The position numbers and the translations under genes were made by a program. From the IMG/VR virus record IMGVR_UViG_3300035187_002824, positions 4,659-68,658 of that record: a stretch of 64,000 nt of DNA; one strand, written 5' to 3'. The stretch is from a virus. Numbering within the stretch: the first letter of the stretch is position 1; the number at the start of each line of letters is the position of its first letter. This document shows, one piece after another, positions 36,190 through 51,700 of the stretch. The notes beneath the pieces are model-generated. The model did no database searches. It saw only the letters and a program-made list of their open reading frames with translations, and was not told where the DNA came from.

Positions 36190-36465
36190 TTAGGGGTAAG
36201 CCCCTACTATGCCGGGGCCTACAAATTTGGGCCGATCAAGCTGCGATGCGGGTAGCACGCGTAGCGATCATGTTGACAGTGTTGTCAGTTATTTTTCAAT
36301 ACACTCTCCTATGCTCTTTCATCAAATGTCAAATCCAGTCGGCCCCAATGTTAAATTTTTAACAACCGATTTGTGTGCGCATATGCGTAACCGGTTTTAT
36401 TGGTGGAGCCGGAGGGGATCGAACCCTCGTCCAAAAGATTTCCAAACACAATCAACGAACGTATC
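36190..36465 (-). ncRNA. ssrA: circularly permuted two-piece tmRNA gene (acceptor piece 36465-36401, intervening segment 36400-36347, coding piece from 36346; 3' end approximate)
   Basis: GACGAGGGTTCGATCCCCTCCGGCTCCACCA lies upstream of GGGGCCGACTGGATTTGAC; 7-bp acceptor stem with G3.U; ATAACT resume context then DNTVNMIATRATRIAA*. Confidence 0.9.
36236..36286 (-). other. tmRNA tag reading frame (A)DNTVNMIATRATRIAA*
   Basis: GAC AAC ACT GTC AAC ATG ATC GCT ACG CGT GCT ACC CGC ATC GCA GCT TGA after AAAAATAACT; ends in Ala-Ala. Confidence 0.85.
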
Positions 36466-38229: not shown

Positions 38230-38301
38230 TAGCGGGAGACGGATTCGAACCGCCGGCCTTCGAGTTATGAGCCCGACGAGCTACCGCTGCTCTATCCCGC
38301 T
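38230..38301 (-). tRNA. tRNA-Met(CAT), initiator-like, CCA not encoded
   Basis: AGCGGGA/TCCCGCT acceptor stem, GAGC..GGTA.GCTC D arm, TCGGG-CTCATAA-CTCGA anticodon arm, GGCGG-TTCGAAT-CCGTC T arm. Confidence 0.9.
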
Positions 38302-41349: not shown

Positions 41350-41676
41350 TCATAGTATCTGCATTTCAAAATACAAAGTTAACTCTTTATTCAAATACCT
41401 TTCTTCTGGAATCTTAGAAAAAGATGGCCACGGCTTAAAGATAAACAAGCCAAGATCCCTTTCGTGAAACAGCCACTTCTGGTTGTACTTATCCACATAT
41501 AGGAACTTTTCAGGATTCTCCTCAGCATCAGGTAGATACTCAGTCACAACCATTAACATGTTGTTTGGTTCTGATTGTTTAAGTGGCTTCAGAAACTGAA
41601 ACCACTTTCTTTTTTCCTGCTTGAGAAAAACCGGGAATACCGATTTAATTACACCTTTAAAAAGTTTTCGCTTCAT
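41350..41676 (-). CDS. hypothetical protein
   Basis: Coupled to the kinase gene. Confidence 0.5.
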   Translation of the reverse strand: MKRKLFKGVIKSVFPVFLKQEKRKWFQFLKPLKQSEPNNMLMVVTEYLPDAEENPEKFLYVDKYNQKWLFHERDLGLFIFKPWPSFSKIPEERYLNKELTLYFEMQIL

Positions 41677-42322
41677 TCTCCATGATGTATTTCAAAAGCG
41701 TATCAACAATCTCTTCAGTGGATGATATCTCTGTGTTGAACACATCATCAAATATCTCAAGATACTTGTCATCATCAAGAGCAGTCTCAGAGATGTGGTT
41801 CAAGTTACGGTTAGAGTTTGCTCTAACTTTGGCCGGATCACCTTCAAGGCGGATACACAGTCTTTTGATACCATCGTTCTTAGGTGCAAACATGTCGAGC
41901 TCATTCGGGAATCGAACATCAGGAACAATCACCAAGGTATCTATGTTGGAAAACCCAACTCTGAACGCTTCCTTAATCTTCTTCTCAGCAATATTTACCC
42001 AGATATTCTCGCCGAAAATCTCACGCATGCCTACTCCAAACTTCTGCATGAATTCACCATATGTAACATTGTCAAAAGCAATGTCATTCTTGTGCTCTTG
42101 AGATGGCTCACCATTCTCATCAACAACCATCCCGAGATTGTTTGCTGCGAAATTCTTGATGGCCGATGCAAAAGAAATGTATTGAACATTCATTCTGTAC
42201 GGACGTCCGATGACCATGTTGGAATCGTTCAGCTTTTCAATTACATAAGCCAAAGCATTTTGAGTTGTGGTCTTTCCGGATCCAATCTTACCGGAGATAC
42301 CGAGGATGATTTTTCTTCCCAT
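41657..42322 (-). CDS. deoxynucleoside monophosphate kinase
   Basis: GISGKIGSGKTT P-loop, SFASAIK, MQKFG, PDVRFPNE, HISETALD. Confidence 0.85.
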   Translation of the reverse strand: MGRKIILGISGKIGSGKTTTQNALAYVIEKLNDSNMVIGRPYRMNVQYISFASAIKNFAANNLGMVVDENGEPSQEHKNDIAFDNVTYGEFMQKFGVGMREIFGENIWVNIAEKKIKEAFRVGFSNIDTLVIVPDVRFPNELDMFAPKNDGIKRLCIRLEGDPAKVRANSNRNLNHISETALDDDKYLEIFDDVFNTEISSTEEIVDTLLKYIMENEAKTF

Positions 42323-42325
42323 AGA

Positions 42326-42580
42326 TTATTTTATTTTTTGTTTCATACCGATTACTGTTCCGATGGCCCCTCCAATAAGATGAGCTATAATAGTGAGATA
42401 CTCAGAGCCTATGTTCATCACTGCTTTCGCGCCGAGTCCAGTTGTTATCAACCAAAGTATACCAACACCGGTCCCGGAAACTACAGCGCCTACCATGTTA
42501 TCGCGGGATGTATACTTGACATTTATGGTTCTCAGATAGAGAAATCCTATTTGCGCGAACAACACGATTAAAGCTTCCAT
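42326..42580 (-). CDS. small membrane protein (DUF5698-like)
   Basis: Three hydrophobic segments, LYLRTINV, GGAIGTVIGM. Confidence 0.6.
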   Translation of the reverse strand: MEALIVLFAQIGFLYLRTINVKYTSRDNMVGAVVSGTGVGILWLITTGLGAKAVMNIGSEYLTIIAHLIGGAIGTVIGMKQKIK

Positions 42581-42618
42581 TGATTATTGTAACGTATCTT
42601 GTAATTTTTTGTTACAAA

Positions 42619-42645
42619 AAAAGCCGGGAGATTATCCCGGCTTTT
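42619..42645. terminator. intrinsic terminator
   Basis: AAAAGCCGGGA-gatta-TCCCGGCTTTT. Confidence 0.75.
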
Positions 42646-42663
42646 AAAATAGTTTTTAGAATC

Positions 42664-42978
42664 TTACCAAGTGATAGCTTTCACAGCCCACATCTGAGCT
42701 CCTTGAGCCTCGGTGATTGCAATTGAATACAATCGCTTTTTCTCCGGATCATCAGTTTGATTTCGCTTATCATTGAGGTCATCAATAATATGTGAGAATA
42801 ACGACTTCTGATAATCTACATCAGAGTTATTGCTTGGATTAAAAGATAACCCTACAGCCTTAGCTCCATAGCTTTGTGCTGGGATGTCATGTTGACGGCC
42901 TGCCTCTGCAGGTACTTCAGAACGGACACCGCGTTCTTCAATTTCTTGTCCTTCTTCTTCTTTTGTAACTTCACTCAT
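42664..42978 (-). CDS. Acb2/Tad1-like helical-hairpin protein (candidate cyclic-nucleotide sponge)
   Basis: VGLSFNPS...KRLYSIAITEAQGAQMWAVKAITW resembles the C-terminal R..S.AIT..E/Q.A.MW..KA helix of this group. Confidence 0.6.
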   Translation of the reverse strand: MSEVTKEEEGQEIEERGVRSEVPAEAGRQHDIPAQSYGAKAVGLSFNPSNNSDVDYQKSLFSHIIDDLNDKRNQTDDPEKKRLYSIAITEAQGAQMWAVKAITW

Positions 42979-43185
42979 AAATAGTTTTTTAAAGTTTGAA
43001 AATGTATTGATAGAGACTTCGTTTACGTATCTGGGCGGGGAAAAGTTACAGTAGTTTTAAGACAGGTAAACGCAATGTAAATCAACTATTTAGCAATTGT
43101 TTCCCTCATTGATAAGGGAAACAATTATCATCCATAATAACCGTATTGGAATGTTATGGATGATTAAGCGAGACTTAGCGGGGAG

Positions 43186-43524
43186 TTATGCACAATAATA
43201 AGCGACCGTAGCCATCCAAAGAATATGAACTACATTGTCAACTATTACGTGTCCCCAAAATCTACTTATTTCAGGTTGAAATTTTCCTGTTACTCTACAA
43301 AACCAAGCAATTATATAAGTACGGTCTTGTATGTAGTGTTGCACTGCTATTAAAAGCAATCCAAGTGGGTTTATACTTGTGAATATAAATGGTATCATAT
43401 AAGTTAAAATATGAACCAAGCAAATCCAACTGTTTTTCTTTTTGTTTAATGCCATCCAATCGTTTTGAAGTAGATAATCCCCGATTAAGTGGGCATAAAT
43501 CCATGGTAAAGCAAATCCAATCAT
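43186..43524 (-). CDS. DUF3307-like membrane protein (cassette ORF)
   Basis: AHLIGDYLLQNDWMA..K, HY.QD, DNVVH; stop TAA lies within TGTGCATAAC. Confidence 0.75.
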   Translation of the reverse strand: MIGFALPWIYAHLIGDYLLQNDWMALNKKKNSWICLVHILTYMIPFIFTSINPLGLLLIAVQHYIQDRTYIIAWFCRVTGKFQPEISRFWGHVIVDNVVHILWMATVAYYCA

Positions 43525-43559
43525 TTTATTTAAGTGTTTAATTAATAATAAATTACTGT

Positions 43560-43690
43560 GCATAACAAGCGGTCATAAAACATTGGGGTTTAATCTGTTA
43601 TTCAAACTTTACCCACATGCAAAGTTCCGTTTCGGCTGATAGGTTTGTAGCTCGCATTCCCCAACGATTTTATACCGCCAGCCGTTACCT
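43560..43690 (+). mobile_element. attC-like recombination site (131 bp)
   Basis: GCATAAC-aa-GCGGTcATAAAACATTGGGG ... CCCCAACGaTTTTATACCGC-cagcc-GTTACCT; unpaired C on the left arm and A on the right arm. Confidence 0.7.
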
Positions 43691-43696
43691 GCAAGT

Positions 43697-44038
43697 CTAC
43701 GTGACGTTTTCAAAATAAAGTTTATTACTTGGGTTTTCAGGGTTCAAGTTGTTCAATGCCAACCGACCAAAAGAACCTTTTTCAACCGACTTTTCAATTA
43801 ACGCAACTGATAATTGTTCGTGAGTAAATCCGTTCTGTTTAGCAAATGAAAAAGCAACCTGTATCAAGTCCACAAATTCCATAATATCCTTATGGTCGCT
43901 TGCTTGAATTTCAGCTAATTCCTCACGAACTTTAATTGCATAAAGTCGGTTCAATTCGTCTTGGTCGGTAATAGTTTCCCATTCACCCTCTTTTAGTTTT
44001 TCAGTAATAAACTTTCTGATTAATTTCTTTGGTTTCAT
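43697..44038 (-). CDS. MazG-superfamily NTP pyrophosphohydrolase (COG4997-like; cassette ORF)
   Basis: KLIR..., KVREELAE, EFVDL, EK..EKGSF. Confidence 0.7.
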   Translation of the reverse strand: MKPKKLIRKFITEKLKEGEWETITDQDELNRLYAIKVREELAEIQASDHKDIMEFVDLIQVAFSFAKQNGFTHEQLSVALIEKSVEKGSFGRLALNNLNPENPSNKLYFENVT

Positions 44039-44079
44039 TTTCGTGTTTTAATTAAATTCCTACTGATAAACCGCCCAAC

Positions 44080-44161
44080 AGATAACAGCGGTTTGTGGTC
44101 ATTAACCAGACCACACAAGGCTTTGCTTCGTTAACGAACCACAAGTCGAAAAGCGTTATGC
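44080..44161 (+). mobile_element. attC-like recombination site (82 bp)
   Basis: AGATAAC-ag-CGGTTTGTGGTCATTAAC ... GTTAACGAACCACAAGTCG-aaaagc-GTTATGC. Confidence 0.7.
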
Positions 44162-44695
44162 GTTACGCAACGCTGCCGTGTGCCCCAACAATATTTTCAA
44201 ATCATTGACAATATATCGGTAATGGTGCATTTCGCTTTCGTTTGGAAATAATGATTGCAAAAAATCATCATTCTCTTTCTGATAAACACCATACATCCGT
44301 GACATATTATCGTAGCTATATTGGACGTTTGCAAGCCTATCACATAGCTTTACATACTTTGCCCACATTGTTTTTCTGATGCCATCGTAGTAAGCCTCGT
44401 TTGCTCTTTCTTTTCGGTTCTTGCCTTTCTCATTCGTTACAGCATAAACAATGTTTGCGACCGTTTCACCAGCTACTTGTTTCACATCGTTGTAAGTAAG
44501 CCTACAATCCTCAATCGTATCGTGTAACCAACAAGCTGCCAATACATCGCTTTGAGCCTGTACAGGTATGCAATCAATATACTTTTGTGCAATCATAGCT
44601 ACCATAGCTAAATGCACCGAATAAGGTTTACCATCGTATAAATGGTTTGTGTTGTTGTGTGCTTCAATTGCGAAGCTGATAATTTTACTGTTCAT
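44156..44695 (-). CDS. HD-domain small alarmone hydrolase-like protein (SpoT-HD/Mesh1 type; cassette ORF)
   Basis: FAIEAH, PYSVHL, WLHDTIED, VYAVT, VKLCDRLAN. Confidence 0.85.
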   Translation of the reverse strand: MNSKIISFAIEAHNNTNHLYDGKPYSVHLAMVAMIAQKYIDCIPVQAQSDVLAACWLHDTIEDCRLTYNDVKQVAGETVANIVYAVTNEKGKNRKERANEAYYDGIRKTMWAKYVKLCDRLANVQYSYDNMSRMYGVYQKENDDFLQSLFPNESEMHHYRYIVNDLKILLGHTAALRNA

Positions 44696-44752
44696 ATTTC
44701 AAATTTCAATTCGTTTTCAAAAAGACAGAACACATAACATTTATGTGCAGAA

Positions 44753-44977
44753 CTACAATTCTACTATCCAAGAAGGATATGGGTATTGATGTCTTTCTCC
44801 GATTACTGGTGCAGGAGCCATCCAATCATTTCCATCAGGATGCCTTACAGGTTTTTTATCTACGATTTTTAAACCGTTCTTAATTAAGTGCAGCTCAAAC
44901 ATAGCATTCCATTCCGGGCCTGAACCTGCATACTGTAACGCATCATCTATTATTGTATTGTATTTCTCATGTGTCAT
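44753..44977 (-). CDS. hypothetical protein (probable cassette ORF)
   Basis: Flanked by GTTATATGTA upstream and TGCACATAAA downstream. Confidence 0.55.
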   Translation of the reverse strand: MTHEKYNTIIDDALQYAGSGPEWNAMFELHLIKNGLKIVDKKPVRHPDGNDWMAPAPVIGERHQYPYPSWIVEL

Positions 44978-45023
44978 TTCGTCTCAATTTAAAAATACAT
45001 ATAACAAGTTTTCAGTAACGGAA

Positions 45024-45471: not shown

Positions 45472-45857
45472 TAAAATAATTTACCACCGAAAACCGGCTA
45501 TCGCCTAACGTCATTTTTACCGGCTCGGGAATGCTCTCCTTTCGGCATATTAGGCATCCTCTGTGGTAAATATTTGTACCCGCCCGGGTACGCTCGGGCC
45601 GGAAAATGATATATCACAAACCCGTAAGGGTATAAAATTTCTACCGTCTACCACTCCAGAGATAAGATATGAAAAACACCATAGACATAAATAAAGAAAT
45701 CAAATAAAGAACTAATGTTGAAAGAAAAACCAACTTCTCCCAATCATATATCTTTCGATCGCCGTCAATGTGTAAACACACAAGCGCGTAAACTAATTGT
45801 ATGTACATGGCTATTAAACAAAACACTGAAGTATTTATAAGGATCTTTCTCATGGTT

Positions 45858-46127
45858 TTATATATCGTAATAAGTTTCTTTCCCGCAATCCACACATGTA
45901 TGCTTAGCATACCTTTCTTGATAGTTGTTTTTAATTTTAACACGAAAATGATCGCAACGACAAGGGCCGGATTCTTTTTTCTCCATGAAAGCGACAGCTG
46001 CCTTTTCTATTTCGATAAGCTCATCATCCATAGACATTTTACTTACAGGATAAACCCTTCCTCGTGGATACTTTCTGCTCCAGTCAGCAAGTCTCTTTAC
46101 TATATCTTCAGCGTTCATATCAAACAT
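45858..46127 (-). CDS. small Zn-ribbon protein
   Basis: CRCDH...CVDCG. Confidence 0.55.
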   Translation of the reverse strand: MFDMNAEDIVKRLADWSRKYPRGRVYPVSKMSMDDELIEIEKAAVAFMEKKESGPCRCDHFRVKIKNNYQERYAKHTCVDCGKETYYDI

Positions 46128-46851
46128 TTACTTTTAAAAACTCAGAATCTCCTATGAAGATTTTTTTCTTAATCTCCCCTTTCTCAAACCCGGAACCGCT
46201 ACTACCTTTCTCTCCGTATATGATGATATAGTCAGGAGTTATCTCGTAGAATTTATTTGCAGTAGCATATAGCTCATCGTTCTTGTATATCTCCGCAACC
46301 TGCCAGTACCTGGAGTCATAGTGTTTCAGCACGAATTTATTCTTGTTTACGCGGGGAGAAATATTTTCTTTTTCAAAAACGATTGCATTTTTCTTGGCCT
46401 GCTCTTCTTTATAGTATTCTAATGGAGAAATCAAAATAGGCGCAACACTTTCATTATCAGGAATATAAGACTGAACATCAGACTCTTTAATCTGTCCTAC
46501 GAGTTTCGCTCTATGGGAACGATTCAACCGGTCCGCCAGCCGGATCAGTTTTCTTTCCACGCTGATATCGATACGCTCCTTACACAGGAACGTCTCCAGC
46601 TGGGCGATCATGATCTTAACGTCAGCTACCTCACTACACAGCTCGTTGTATACATTGATATCTTCAATAGACATTTCAGAATGTGGTCTTGTGATACGTT
46701 CTTCAGAGACGAGCCCGGATCGGCGGGCCTTATTGATAGCTTTTATCAACTCGGACATTTCCTCAATAGCCATCATTAGCTGATCAGAAACGCCCCATGT
46801 TCTTACCGCTGACTTAAATAGATGCTCACTATCTTTCAATGGATCACTCAT
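46120..46851 (-). CDS. MazG-like NTP pyrophosphohydrolase with C-terminal extension
   Basis: WG...Q...AIEEMSELIKAI...EVADVKIMIAQL. Confidence 0.75.
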   Translation of the reverse strand: MSDPLKDSEHLFKSAVRTWGVSDQLMMAIEEMSELIKAINKARRSGLVSEERITRPHSEMSIEDINVYNELCSEVADVKIMIAQLETFLCKERIDISVERKLIRLADRLNRSHRAKLVGQIKESDVQSYIPDNESVAPILISPLEYYKEEQAKKNAIVFEKENISPRVNKNKFVLKHYDSRYWQVAEIYKNDELYATANKFYEITPDYIIIYGEKGSSGSGFEKGEIKKKIFIGDSEFLKVNV

Positions 46852-51498: not shown

Positions 51499-51586
51499 GG
51501 TCAGGTGGCGTAATTGGTGAAAGCAACGTGGGCTTGGTGAAAATCCAACACGTCTGATGCAGGTTCGAATCCTGCCCTGACCACCA
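51499..51586 (+). ncRNA. tRNA-like element A with non-canonical anticodon arm, CCA encoded
   Basis: GGTCAGG/CCTGACC-A-CCA, TGGCGTAATTGG, GCAGG-TTCGAAT-CCTGC. Confidence 0.7.
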
Positions 51587-51594
51587 ATTTAATT

Positions 51595-51700
51595 GATGAG
51601 TTCGTCTAATGGTAGGACTGATCTATGATAGATCCTGATGCTGAGTTAGTCGGCACTGAAAGTTGAAACACTTATACGGGTTCGATTCCCGTACTCATCA
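51595..51700 (+). ncRNA. tRNA-like element B with multi-hairpin insert in place of the anticodon arm
   Basis: GATGAGT/ACTCATC, GTCTAATGGTAGGAC D arm, ACGGG-TTCGATT-CCCGT. Confidence 0.7.

What the first reader, a model, noticed from the sequence alone, without database searches (positions are those of the whole stretch)
43073..45010. Integron-type gene cassette array inside a phage genome
Seen: single ORFs alternate with imperfect palindromes bounded by TAAC...GTTA (43560-43690, 44080-44161). Each ORF unit has mutually complementary ends, as expected of a once-circular cassette: GTTATGCACA...TGTGCATAAC (DUF3307), GTTATCTG...CAGGTAAC (MazG-like), GTTATGTGTT...AACGCATAAC (HD), GTTATATGTA...TGCACATAAA (74 aa). 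Two stops lie inside TAAC, and the region looks AT-richer than its flanks. No tyrosine recombinase is in the window. Known: attC arrays are features of bacterial chromosomes and plasmids and are rarely reported in phages. Inference: the phage captures or shuffles accessory genes with a host (or distant phage) IntI, i.e. a cassette-based counter-defence locus.
Basis: partly seen in the sequence, partly recalled or inferred. Interest (0 to 1): 0.85.

Follow-up and report, generated by a model that had tools for sequence, protein, structure and literature searches.

The report
Integron-like gene cassettes in a phage
This complete phage genome carries a short row of swappable single-gene cassettes joined by DNA hairpins, of a type widespread in Bacteroidota and their phages, and a lake-water variant of the same phage lacks exactly one cassette.

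Summary
Three small minus-strand genes (DUF3307, MazG-like, HD) alternate with two imperfect hairpins bounded by TAAC...GTTA. A fourth unit (74 aa) is weak.

A covariance model built only from other phages finds just these two hairpins in the window (26 bits, E 6e-4; 19 bits, E 0.03). The family forms co-oriented arrays in Bacteroidota chromosomes and phages. In 164 family cassettes the two ends of a cassette pair with each other (5.95 of 8). The two flanks of one hairpin do not (3.27; random 3.12).

Most decisive: one contig from an independent lake-water run skips 499 bases between the GTTA cores at 43185 and 43684. It lacks exactly the DUF3307 gene plus its hairpin.

In six bacterial genomes the arrays lie beside a Xer-like tyrosine recombinase that lacks the integron-integrase insert. 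This phage encodes no tyrosine recombinase. Phage genes face the opposite way to bacterial ones relative to hairpin polarity.

So this is an integron-like, integrase-less array, but membership in the classical attC/IntI family is not shown. Phage attC clusters were published in 2023. This scan has flagged the same Bacteroidota-type system many times on other DNA. Novelty: a new variant of a known kind.

The parts
43186..43684 (-). Cassette 1: the DUF3307 gene (43186-43563) plus hairpin A. This unit is present or absent as a whole in natural variants.
   Evidence: Pfam PF11750, E 3.2e-7. A run X5 contig skips 43185-43683, with 4 letters (GTTA) fitting both sides. The unit ends are complementary 10 of 10.
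43557..43693 (-). Hairpin A, a divergent member of the Bacteroidota hairpin family. Model strand is the minus strand. Cores are TAAC 43563-66 and GTTA 43684-87 on the + strand.
   Evidence: R1 full-length match, 19.2 bits, E 0.03. Inverted-repeat arms at 43569-88 and 43659-78. Fold energy -19.4 kcal/mol on the minus strand against -15.4 on the plus strand.
43685..44155 (-). Cassette 2: the 113-aa MazG-like gene (43697-44038), a conserved leader (about 44039-44095), and hairpin B.
   Evidence: L005 carries the same gene at 92% nucleotide identity over window 44104-43676, with unrelated flanks. The weak PF04447 match (E 0.015, 16 bits) is below the cut-off of 23. The leader island recurs in other contigs.
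44077..44164 (-). Hairpin B, a member of the same family. Cores are TAAC 44083-86 and GTTA 44155-58 on the + strand.
   Evidence: R1 full-length match, 26 bits, E 6e-4. Arms at 44087-44100 and 44109-44122.
44156..44739 (-). Cassette 3: the HD-domain phosphohydrolase gene (44156-44695), its leader, and a degenerate site that keeps only the outer boxes (mini-palindrome 44729-44746).
   Evidence: PF13328, E 4.3e-11. phrog_990, E 1.4e-31. Homology to L001-L003 runs exactly from window 44739 to 44154/55 at 87-88% nucleotide identity. The mini-palindrome folds.
44740..45005 (-). Possible cassette 4: a 74-aa ORF (44753-44977) with weakly matching ends and no hairpin.
   Evidence: Sequence. No family match and no relative in viral contigs. 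No R1 match here.
43073..43185 (.). Array boundary. Two strong hairpins (43095-43126, 43127-43164) and 21 bases lead up to the first GTT core. This is the side where the recombinase gene sits in related arrays.
   Evidence: Arms 93% and 100% complementary. Fold z -5.2, with 0 of 200 shuffles as good.

Best explanation
The stretch is a short, integrase-less array of three (perhaps four) integron-like gene cassettes.

Shown:
- Read on the + strand, each cassette runs from TT of a GTT core, through one antisense gene, to a TAAC box, then a hairpin site and the G of the next GTT.
- The units are exchanged at the GTT/AAC cores.

Inferred, by analogy with attC recombination:
- The minus strand is the better-folding strand and the one the family model matches. 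It folds into a hairpin with an outer box (TAAC/GTTA) and an inner box.
- A tyrosine recombinase bound to the folded strand cuts within TAA|C and exchanges one strand. Replication then completes insertion or excision.

Inferred from bacterial and phage relatives:
- The enzyme is most likely the Xer-like recombinase found beside such arrays. It would be supplied in trans by the host or a co-infecting element, because this phage encodes none.

Plausible but untested: the cargo (membrane protein, NTP pyrophosphohydrolase-like protein, HD hydrolase, next to an Acb2/Tad1-like gene) looks like accessory or counter-defence genes.
For: 1. Family membership.
- Model R1 was built from 37 hairpins of other viral contigs. 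In 64 kb it gives only two full-length matches, and they are the two hairpins.
- The alignment shows 23 pairs, 9 of them with compensatory changes.

2. Arrays.
- R1 finds co-oriented rows in bacterial loci and genomes: 176 matches in 80 loci, and 11-51 matches per genome in 5 genomes.
- It also finds rows in viral loci: 236 matches in 63 loci.

3. Cassette signature, over 164 cassettes.
- The 8 nt outside the upstream GTT pair with the 8 nt outside the next AAC at a mean of 5.95 of 8.
- The two flanks of one hairpin pair at 3.27 (n=238). Random pairs give 3.12.
- In paired comparison, own exceeds adjacent in 137 cassettes, falls below in 11, and ties in 16.

4. Natural variant. One 1494-nt contig of run X5 (depth 4.81) covers 42327-43184 and 43684-44319, with 1 other letter in each piece. 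It skips 499 nt, and GTTA fits both sides.

5. Module boundaries. HD homology to L001-L003 starts at GTTATG and stops at CATAAC.

6. Recombinase linkage.
- A 313-416-aa Xer-like recombinase lies 0.8-8 kb from arrays, always at the same end and on the opposite strand. This holds in G002, G003 and G004.
- After I predicted the position and strand, it also held in G009, G043 and G065 at 61-64% identity.
- Homologues lie beside arrays in 4 viral loci.

7. Strand. The model strand folds better in 223 of 261 elements.
Against: - The window's hairpins score low against R1 (26 and 19 bits, against 60-124 for typical members). Their fold energies are not unusual.
- The MazG-like cassette's ends match only 4 of 8. 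The 74-aa unit has no hairpin.
- Complementary ends alone are at chance level window-wide.
- The deletion rests on one contig of one run. Contigs, not raw reads, were laid.
- The recombinase was not adjacent to listed elements in G001 (about 204 kb away) or in G005 (11 kb away, different arrangement).
- No enzyme activity was tested.
- The same HD gene carries different hairpins in four contexts. Near-identical hairpin interiors sit between unrelated flanks on both sides in 320 pairs. Linkage of hairpin to gene is therefore loose, or it is re-set often.
- R1 gave no match in Polaribacter phage P12002L, which has published attC sites. It gave only 8.1 bits (E 1.2) on the veb-1 attC.
Confidence: 0.75

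Rival explanations
1. A classical CALIN. On this reading the hairpins are true attC sites, recombined by a bona fide integron integrase (IntI) of the host.
For: - The AAC/GTT cores, the imperfect hairpin and the crossover at the core match attC logic.
- attC clusters without integrase occur in phages, including a Flavobacteriia phage. Five of six tested sites recombined with IntI1 (PMC9892861, section 3.4).
- P12002L intergenic regions show TAACG...GTTA mini-hairpins.
- The veb-1 attC aligns end to end with R1 on the strand opposite the gene.
Against: - The recombinase next to the arrays scores 191-207 bits against the TIGR02249 cut-off of 265, and 128-131 against 435 for NF011946. It matches in two pieces that skip profile positions 182-233.
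- The unpaired bases sit on the arm that carries the crossover core, unlike my recalled picture of attC.
- IntegronFinder 2.0 reported only In0 in Bacteroidetes earlier, plus one complete integron in Salinibacter (PMC9024848, passage). Yet these arrays are common.
- The veb-1 match is not significant (8.1 bits, E 1.2).
Confidence: 0.12
2. The hairpins are conserved intergenic linkers, such as terminators or regulatory stem-loops. Gene modules would then be swapped by homologous or microhomology-driven recombination between linkers, with no dedicated site-specific enzyme.
For: - The hairpin arms are highly conserved across contigs and could serve as homology.
- Some hairpins look chimeric in the lower stem: 6-7 of 37 sequences break those pairs.
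- The deletion has a 4-nt overlap.
- In phages the better-folding strand is the sense strand.
Against: - The flanks of one hairpin are no more complementary than random, while the two ends of a cassette pair across the gene. Linker recombination does not predict this.
- Genes face opposite ways relative to the hairpin in bacteria (39 of 62 opposite) and in phages (98 of 130 co-oriented). This argues against a role tied to the sense transcript.
- The recombinase position and strand were predicted and then found in 3 of 3 genomes.
- I saw no T-run after hairpins A and B.
Confidence: 0.08
3. The hairpins are selfish miniature mobile elements (MITE or REP-like) that insert between genes. The genes themselves would not be mobile units.
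For: Near-identical hairpin interiors lie between unrelated flanks on both sides. Upstream 40 nt are at least 85% identical in 0.00 of 320 pairs, and downstream 40 nt in 0.02.
Against: - The natural variant loses gene plus hairpin together.
- The HD gene moves with exact core-to-core boundaries.
- The arrays are strictly co-oriented and lie beside a recombinase.
- Homogeneous sites within arrays are, from recall, also typical of sedentary integrons.
Confidence: 0.04

Closest known systems
[quoted passage not shown]
   Same: - Single-gene units are separated by imperfect hairpin sites with AAC...GTT cores.
- The crossover lies at the core, so a cassette's two ends are complementary.
- One whole cassette is present or absent in natural variants.
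- There is no integrase in the phage.
   Different: - The hairpin family is specific to Bacteroidota and their phages, with a conserved inner box and about 4 unpaired bases next to the crossover core.
- The linked recombinase lacks the IntI insert.
- Phage genes are antisense to the site polarity used in bacteria.
- Detection by attC models was not testable here.
Sedentary chromosomal integrons with homogeneous repeats, such as the Vibrio cholerae repeats (recalled)
   Same: - Long co-oriented arrays of similar sites, about 126-138 nt long, carry very diverse small cassettes.
- The recombinase gene sits at one fixed end.
   Different: - The recombinase is Xer/XerA-like: NF040815 215-226 bits against TIGR02249 191-207 bits.
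- It is co-oriented with the bacterial cassette genes rather than divergent.
- The host phylum is one in which IntegronFinder found almost no integrons.
Xer-dependent dif modules of Acinetobacter plasmids (recalled, not tested)
   Same: Gene modules are bounded by inverted recombinase half-sites. The outer boxes here (CATAA / TTATG) resemble Xer arm ends. The linked enzyme is Xer-like.
   Different: Here the two half-sites are brought together by a folded hairpin of 60-130 nt, not by a 6-nt spacer in duplex DNA. The arrays are long and co-oriented.
Promoter-stem-loop mediated module shuffling in T4-type phages (recalled, not tested)
   Same: Small accessory genes in a phage plastic region are flanked by conserved stem-loops.
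   Different: That system is thought to work by homologous recombination between repeats. Here the end-pairing signature and a linked recombinase point to site-specific exchange.

Membership tests
attC recombination site (integron) | Inverted outer cores ending in AAC and starting with GTT (R'' RYYYAAC / R' GTTRRRY) | tested here: met
   Both window hairpins have TAAC...GTTA. Of 261 family elements, 238 have AAC and GTT at the modelled places, and 221 have TAAC. The bases further out do not follow RYYY/RRRY strictly.
attC recombination site (integron) | Imperfect hairpin with a second inner box pair and a variable loop, conserved in structure more than in sequence | tested here: met
   23 consensus pairs, 9 with compensatory changes, and variable interiors of about 30-100 nt. 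The window hairpins align full-length to the model.
attC recombination site (integron) | Crossover at G|TT, so that the R' tail belongs to the next cassette and each cassette's ends are complementary | tested here: met
   Own ends 5.95 of 8, same-hairpin flanks 3.27, random 3.12, over 164 cassettes. The 499-nt skip lies between two GTTA cores. The position within the 4-nt overlap is not resolved.
attC recombination site (integron) | Extrahelical bases and unpaired central spacer in the canonical geometry (recalled from the attC literature) | tested here: inconclusive
   About 4 unpaired bases lie between the TAAC-G box and the lower stem, on the arm carrying the crossover core. There are three G.T pairs on the model strand. 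This differs from my recalled canonical picture. No structural test was possible.
attC recombination site (integron) | Recognised by the attC covariance or HMM models (IntegronFinder, HattCI) | not testable with these tools
   These models are not available here. Rfam gave no match in the region. Indirectly, IntegronFinder 2.0 reports almost no integrons in Bacteroidetes.
attC recombination site (integron) | Recombined by an integron integrase | not testable with these tools
The published IntI1 activity concerns other phage sites. R1 does not match that phage.
Integron integrase IntI (for the array-linked recombinase) | Score above the curated family cut-off and presence of the IntI-specific additional domain | tested here: not met
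   TIGR02249 scores 191-207 against a cut-off of 265, in two pieces (2-181, 234-315). NF011946 scores 128-131 against 435. The best family is NF040815 (XerA / 'integron integrase') at 215-226 against 220. The match to IntI4 structure 2a3v also comes in two stretches.
[quoted passage not shown] | Two or more sites on one strand within 4 kb, with no integrase nearby | tested here: met
   The two family hairpins are 384 nt apart on the minus strand. The genome has no tyrosine recombinase. This is met only if the sites are accepted as attC-like.
   26 bits (E 6e-4) and 19.2 bits (E 0.03), both covering model positions 1-136 on the minus strand. There are no other full-length matches in 64 kb.

The most novel reading that the evidence does not exclude
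Bacteroidota and their phages may share a distinct, essentially undescribed integron-like gene-exchange system. Its features would be:
- Folded-hairpin sites.
- A Xer-like recombinase without the IntI domain.
- Huge chromosomal arrays.
- Phage arrays whose genes are antisense to the site polarity.

In this recombinase-less phage the array would still be turning over in nature, so a host or co-infecting enzyme would be editing phage accessory and counter-defence genes in trans during infection.
Probability: 0.5. Interest if true: 0.8.

Novelty: new variant of a known kind. Interest (0 to 1): 0.65.

Why it matters
Integrons are regarded as nearly absent from Bacteroidota (passages). They are defined by IntI and attC.

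A parallel system with another recombinase, shared between abundant freshwater Bacteroidota and their phages, would widen the concept of cassette-based gene capture. It would also give a route by which phages swap small accessory or anti-defence genes.

This window adds two things to the family picture. It is a complete, recombinase-free phage genome. And it has a direct natural presence/absence variant of one cassette, cut at the predicted cores. That makes in-trans cassette exchange testable.

Tried and rejected
- Constrained folding of all 152 TAAC...GTTA pairs in the genome ranked by length, not by site quality. It was not informative.
- A simple arm-alignment score missed the window's own hairpins at my threshold.
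- nhmmer profiles of the two arms recovered only 131 elements and few arrays. I used the covariance-model coordinates instead.
- I looked for the same cassette in two arrays, to see which side the hairpin travels with. Only 1 pair turned up among 193 cassettes. The reverse test on 320 pairs of near-identical hairpin interiors showed unrelated flanks on both sides. Neither settles the linkage.
- Relatives of the phage backbone: the flanking genes 41657-42322 and 46120-46851 gave no relative in viral contigs. GenBank phages gave only 57-93-nt matches. A locus comparison among related genomes was therefore not possible, and the read-laying step took its place.
- R1 found nothing in Polaribacter phage P12002L.
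This is inconclusive.
- No match of a family element in E. coli genomes.
- The Salmonella plasmid hit lies in a Bacteroidota-derived erm(F)/ere(D) segment, not in a class 1 integron.
- Parts of the laid stretch without contig cover in runs X4-X6 say nothing.
- In X3, two contigs diverge just after 43190. From 30 letters they read like the end of a diverged DUF3307-type gene. This is a weak hint only.
- Literature: five searches found no description of this Bacteroidota-type system. Supplements were closed, so the attC coordinates of Qi 2023 could not be compared.
Full report
**What is in the sequence.**
Between 43073 and 45010 all genes are on the minus strand:
- a 74-aa ORF (44753-44977);
- an HD-domain hydrolase (44156-44695; PF13328, E 4.3e-11; phrog_990);
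- a 113-aa protein (43697-44038). Its only family signal is a sub-threshold match to the dATP/dGTP pyrophosphohydrolase family (E 0.015, 16 bits against a cut-off of 23), so 'MazG-like' is weakly supported;
- a DUF3307 membrane protein (43186-43563; PF11750, E 3.2e-7).

Two intergenic imperfect palindromes lie at 43563-43687 and 44083-44158, bounded by TAAC and GTTA. The stops of DUF3307 and HD are the TAA of TAAC. Unit ends are complementary 10 of 10 (DUF3307), 9 of 10 (HD), 7 of 8 (MazG-like) and about 7 of 10 (74 aa). GC is only slightly lower than in the flanks.

The record is a complete 68,658-base virus genome with terminal repeats. It has no tyrosine recombinase.

**Is it more than chance?**
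Taken alone, not clearly.
- Ends of this kind occur 12 times in the window, against 10.9 +/- 3.4 in shuffles. Within the 2-kb region, 2 or more occur in 10 of 200 shuffles.
- The folds have z-scores of only -1.7 and -1.9.
- Rfam has nothing there.

The evidence had to come from relatives.

**Gene modules.**
Each gene recurs alone in unrelated viral contigs.
- The HD gene is 87-88% identical at the nucleotide level in L001-L003. Homology starts at GTTATG and stops at CATAAC (window 44739 to 44154/55). Flanks are unrelated, and a different hairpin follows in each context.
- The MazG-like gene in L005 (92%) shares part of the hairpin arms on both sides.

**A hairpin family.**
The hairpins next to these relatives share a motif.
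- A 14-base pattern found about 50 distinct elements in viral contigs.
By my reading of the record titles about 106 of them are Bacteroidota.
- An alignment of 37 elements gives 23 consensus pairs, 9 with compensatory changes.
- The covariance model R1 was built from these and contains no window sequence. In 64 kb it finds only two full-length matches: hairpin B (26 bits, E 6e-4) and hairpin A (19.2 bits, E 0.03), both on the minus strand. They are divergent members, since typical members score 60-124 bits.

**Arrays.**
R1 finds co-oriented rows spaced 0.3-2 kb apart:
- in bacterial loci (176 matches in 80 loci);
- in whole genomes (11-51 matches each in 5 genomes);
- in viral loci (236 matches in 63 loci, with up to 14 in 9 kb);
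- in Bacteroidota plasmids.

In a sample of 81 genomes of one order, 11 had a match and 4 had nine or more.

**Cassette signature.**
Of these, 238 had AAC and GTT at the modelled places.
- Over 164 cassettes, the 8 nt after the upstream GTT pair with the 8 nt before the next AAC at a mean of 5.95 of 8 (mode 7).
- The two flanks of one hairpin pair at 3.27, and random pairs at 3.12.
- Own exceeds adjacent in 137 cassettes, is lower in 11 and ties in 16.

This is the integron-type signature of units that recombine at the core. The one window cassette measurable this way (MazG-like) scores only 4 of 8.

**A natural variant.**
Lake-water runs hold the stretch in part. In run X5, one contig of 1494 nt (depth 4.81) covers 42327-43184 and then 43684-44319, with 1 other letter in each piece. 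It skips 499 nt, and four letters fit both sides. Those letters are the GTTA cores at 43185-88 and 43684-87.

The variant therefore lacks exactly the DUF3307 gene plus hairpin A. This shows that on the + strand a cassette is made of an antisense gene followed by its hairpin.

The evidence is one contig, not raw reads. A 33-nt island (44063-44095) recurs in many other contigs and looks like a shared cassette leader.

**Polarity.**
- In viral arrays the longest ORF is co-oriented with the model strand in 98 of 130 cassettes (12 opposite, 20 unclear).
- In bacterial loci it is opposite in 39 of 62 (10 co-oriented, 13 unclear).
- The model strand folds better in 223 of 261 elements.

Bacterial cassettes thus look canonical, with the gene followed by its site and the better-folding strand being the 'bottom' strand. 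Phage cassettes, including this window, carry their genes antisense to that polarity.

**Recombinase.**
- The best IntI-model hit in G002, G003 and G004 lies 0.8-8 kb from arrays, at the same end and on the opposite strand.
- I predicted the place and strand for G009, G043 and G065, and found orthologues (61-64% identity) there in 3 of 3.
- It was not adjacent in G001 or G005.
- Homologues (37-45% identity) lie just after arrays in the viral loci L115, L070, L048 and L003.
- The protein is Xer-like: NF040815 215-226 bits (cut-off 220), TIGR02249 191-207 (cut-off 265) in two pieces that skip the IntI-specific region, and Pfam Phage_integrase plus SAM_4. It is not an integron integrase by the curated tests.

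**Known work.**
Qi et al. 2023 reported 17 attC clusters in 10,705 phages and IntI1 activity on five of six tested sites, including one from a Polaribacter phage. I read the abstract, section 3.4 and passages. R1 does not match that phage, although its methyltransferase intergenic regions show TAACG...GTTA mini-hairpins.

IntegronFinder 2.0 found almost no integrons in Bacteroidetes (passage). Five literature searches found no description of this family.

Earlier notes of this scan describe the same system on many other genomes. I re-tested their main claims here. The veb-1 claim stayed inconclusive.

**Verdict.**
This is a real, small, partly decayed integron-like cassette array in a recombinase-less phage. 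It belongs to a Bacteroidota-type variant of the integron idea, and there is direct evidence of cassette gain or loss at the predicted cores. The enzyme, and the claim that the cargo is counter-defence, remain inferences.

Noticed in passing
window 36236-36463 (-): Rfam match to permuted tmRNA (RF04321, 67.2 bits against a gathering score of 47) in this phage. tRNA matches lie at 38230-38301, 51499-51583, 51595-51700 and 58381-58454.
   Followed up: no
window 42664-42978 (-): The 104-aa gene just beyond the array boundary matches the Acb2/Tad1 hairpin domain (PF24729, E 3.1e-8). It is a candidate anti-CBASS/Thoeris sponge.
   Followed up: partly
window 45478-45570: A non-coding stretch is 88% identical over 93 nt to an unannotated region of Flavobacterium phage vB_FspS_snusmum9-1. 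Several runs show variant letters there at 45518-45524. It may be a conserved regulatory or RNA element.
   Followed up: no
window 44039-44095: The leader after hairpin B (GTTAT..GGGCGGTT.ATCAG type) recurs downstream of hairpins in other viral loci and in a 642-kb uncultured phage record. It also recurs as a high-depth island with unrelated sequence on both sides in four runs. It may be a shared cassette promoter or leader.
   Followed up: partly
family hairpin interiors, e.g. L083:6806-6943, L111:113-250: The variable interiors hold one to three copies of a roughly 20-nt sub-motif of the ACAAATGTTGAATAGAA type. They might be binding sites for an accessory protein.
   Followed up: no
L001:5145-5540: Two paralogous ORFs begin inside hairpin elements, so part of each hairpin is read as coding sequence. 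Either the ORFs are spurious or the sites overlap genes.
   Followed up: no
L286 (Salmonella IncC plasmid NZ_OQ658822.1, 129818-129862): A 45-nt piece of a family hairpin arm lies in a Bacteroidota-derived erm(F)/ere(D) segment of an enterobacterial plasmid.
   Followed up: partly
window 43127-43164 and 44729-44746: These mini-palindromes keep only the outer boxes (CATAA / TTATG) with 3-16 nt between them. They look like hairpin sites that lost their interior, and their arms resemble Xer-type half-sites (the resemblance is recalled).
   Followed up: no
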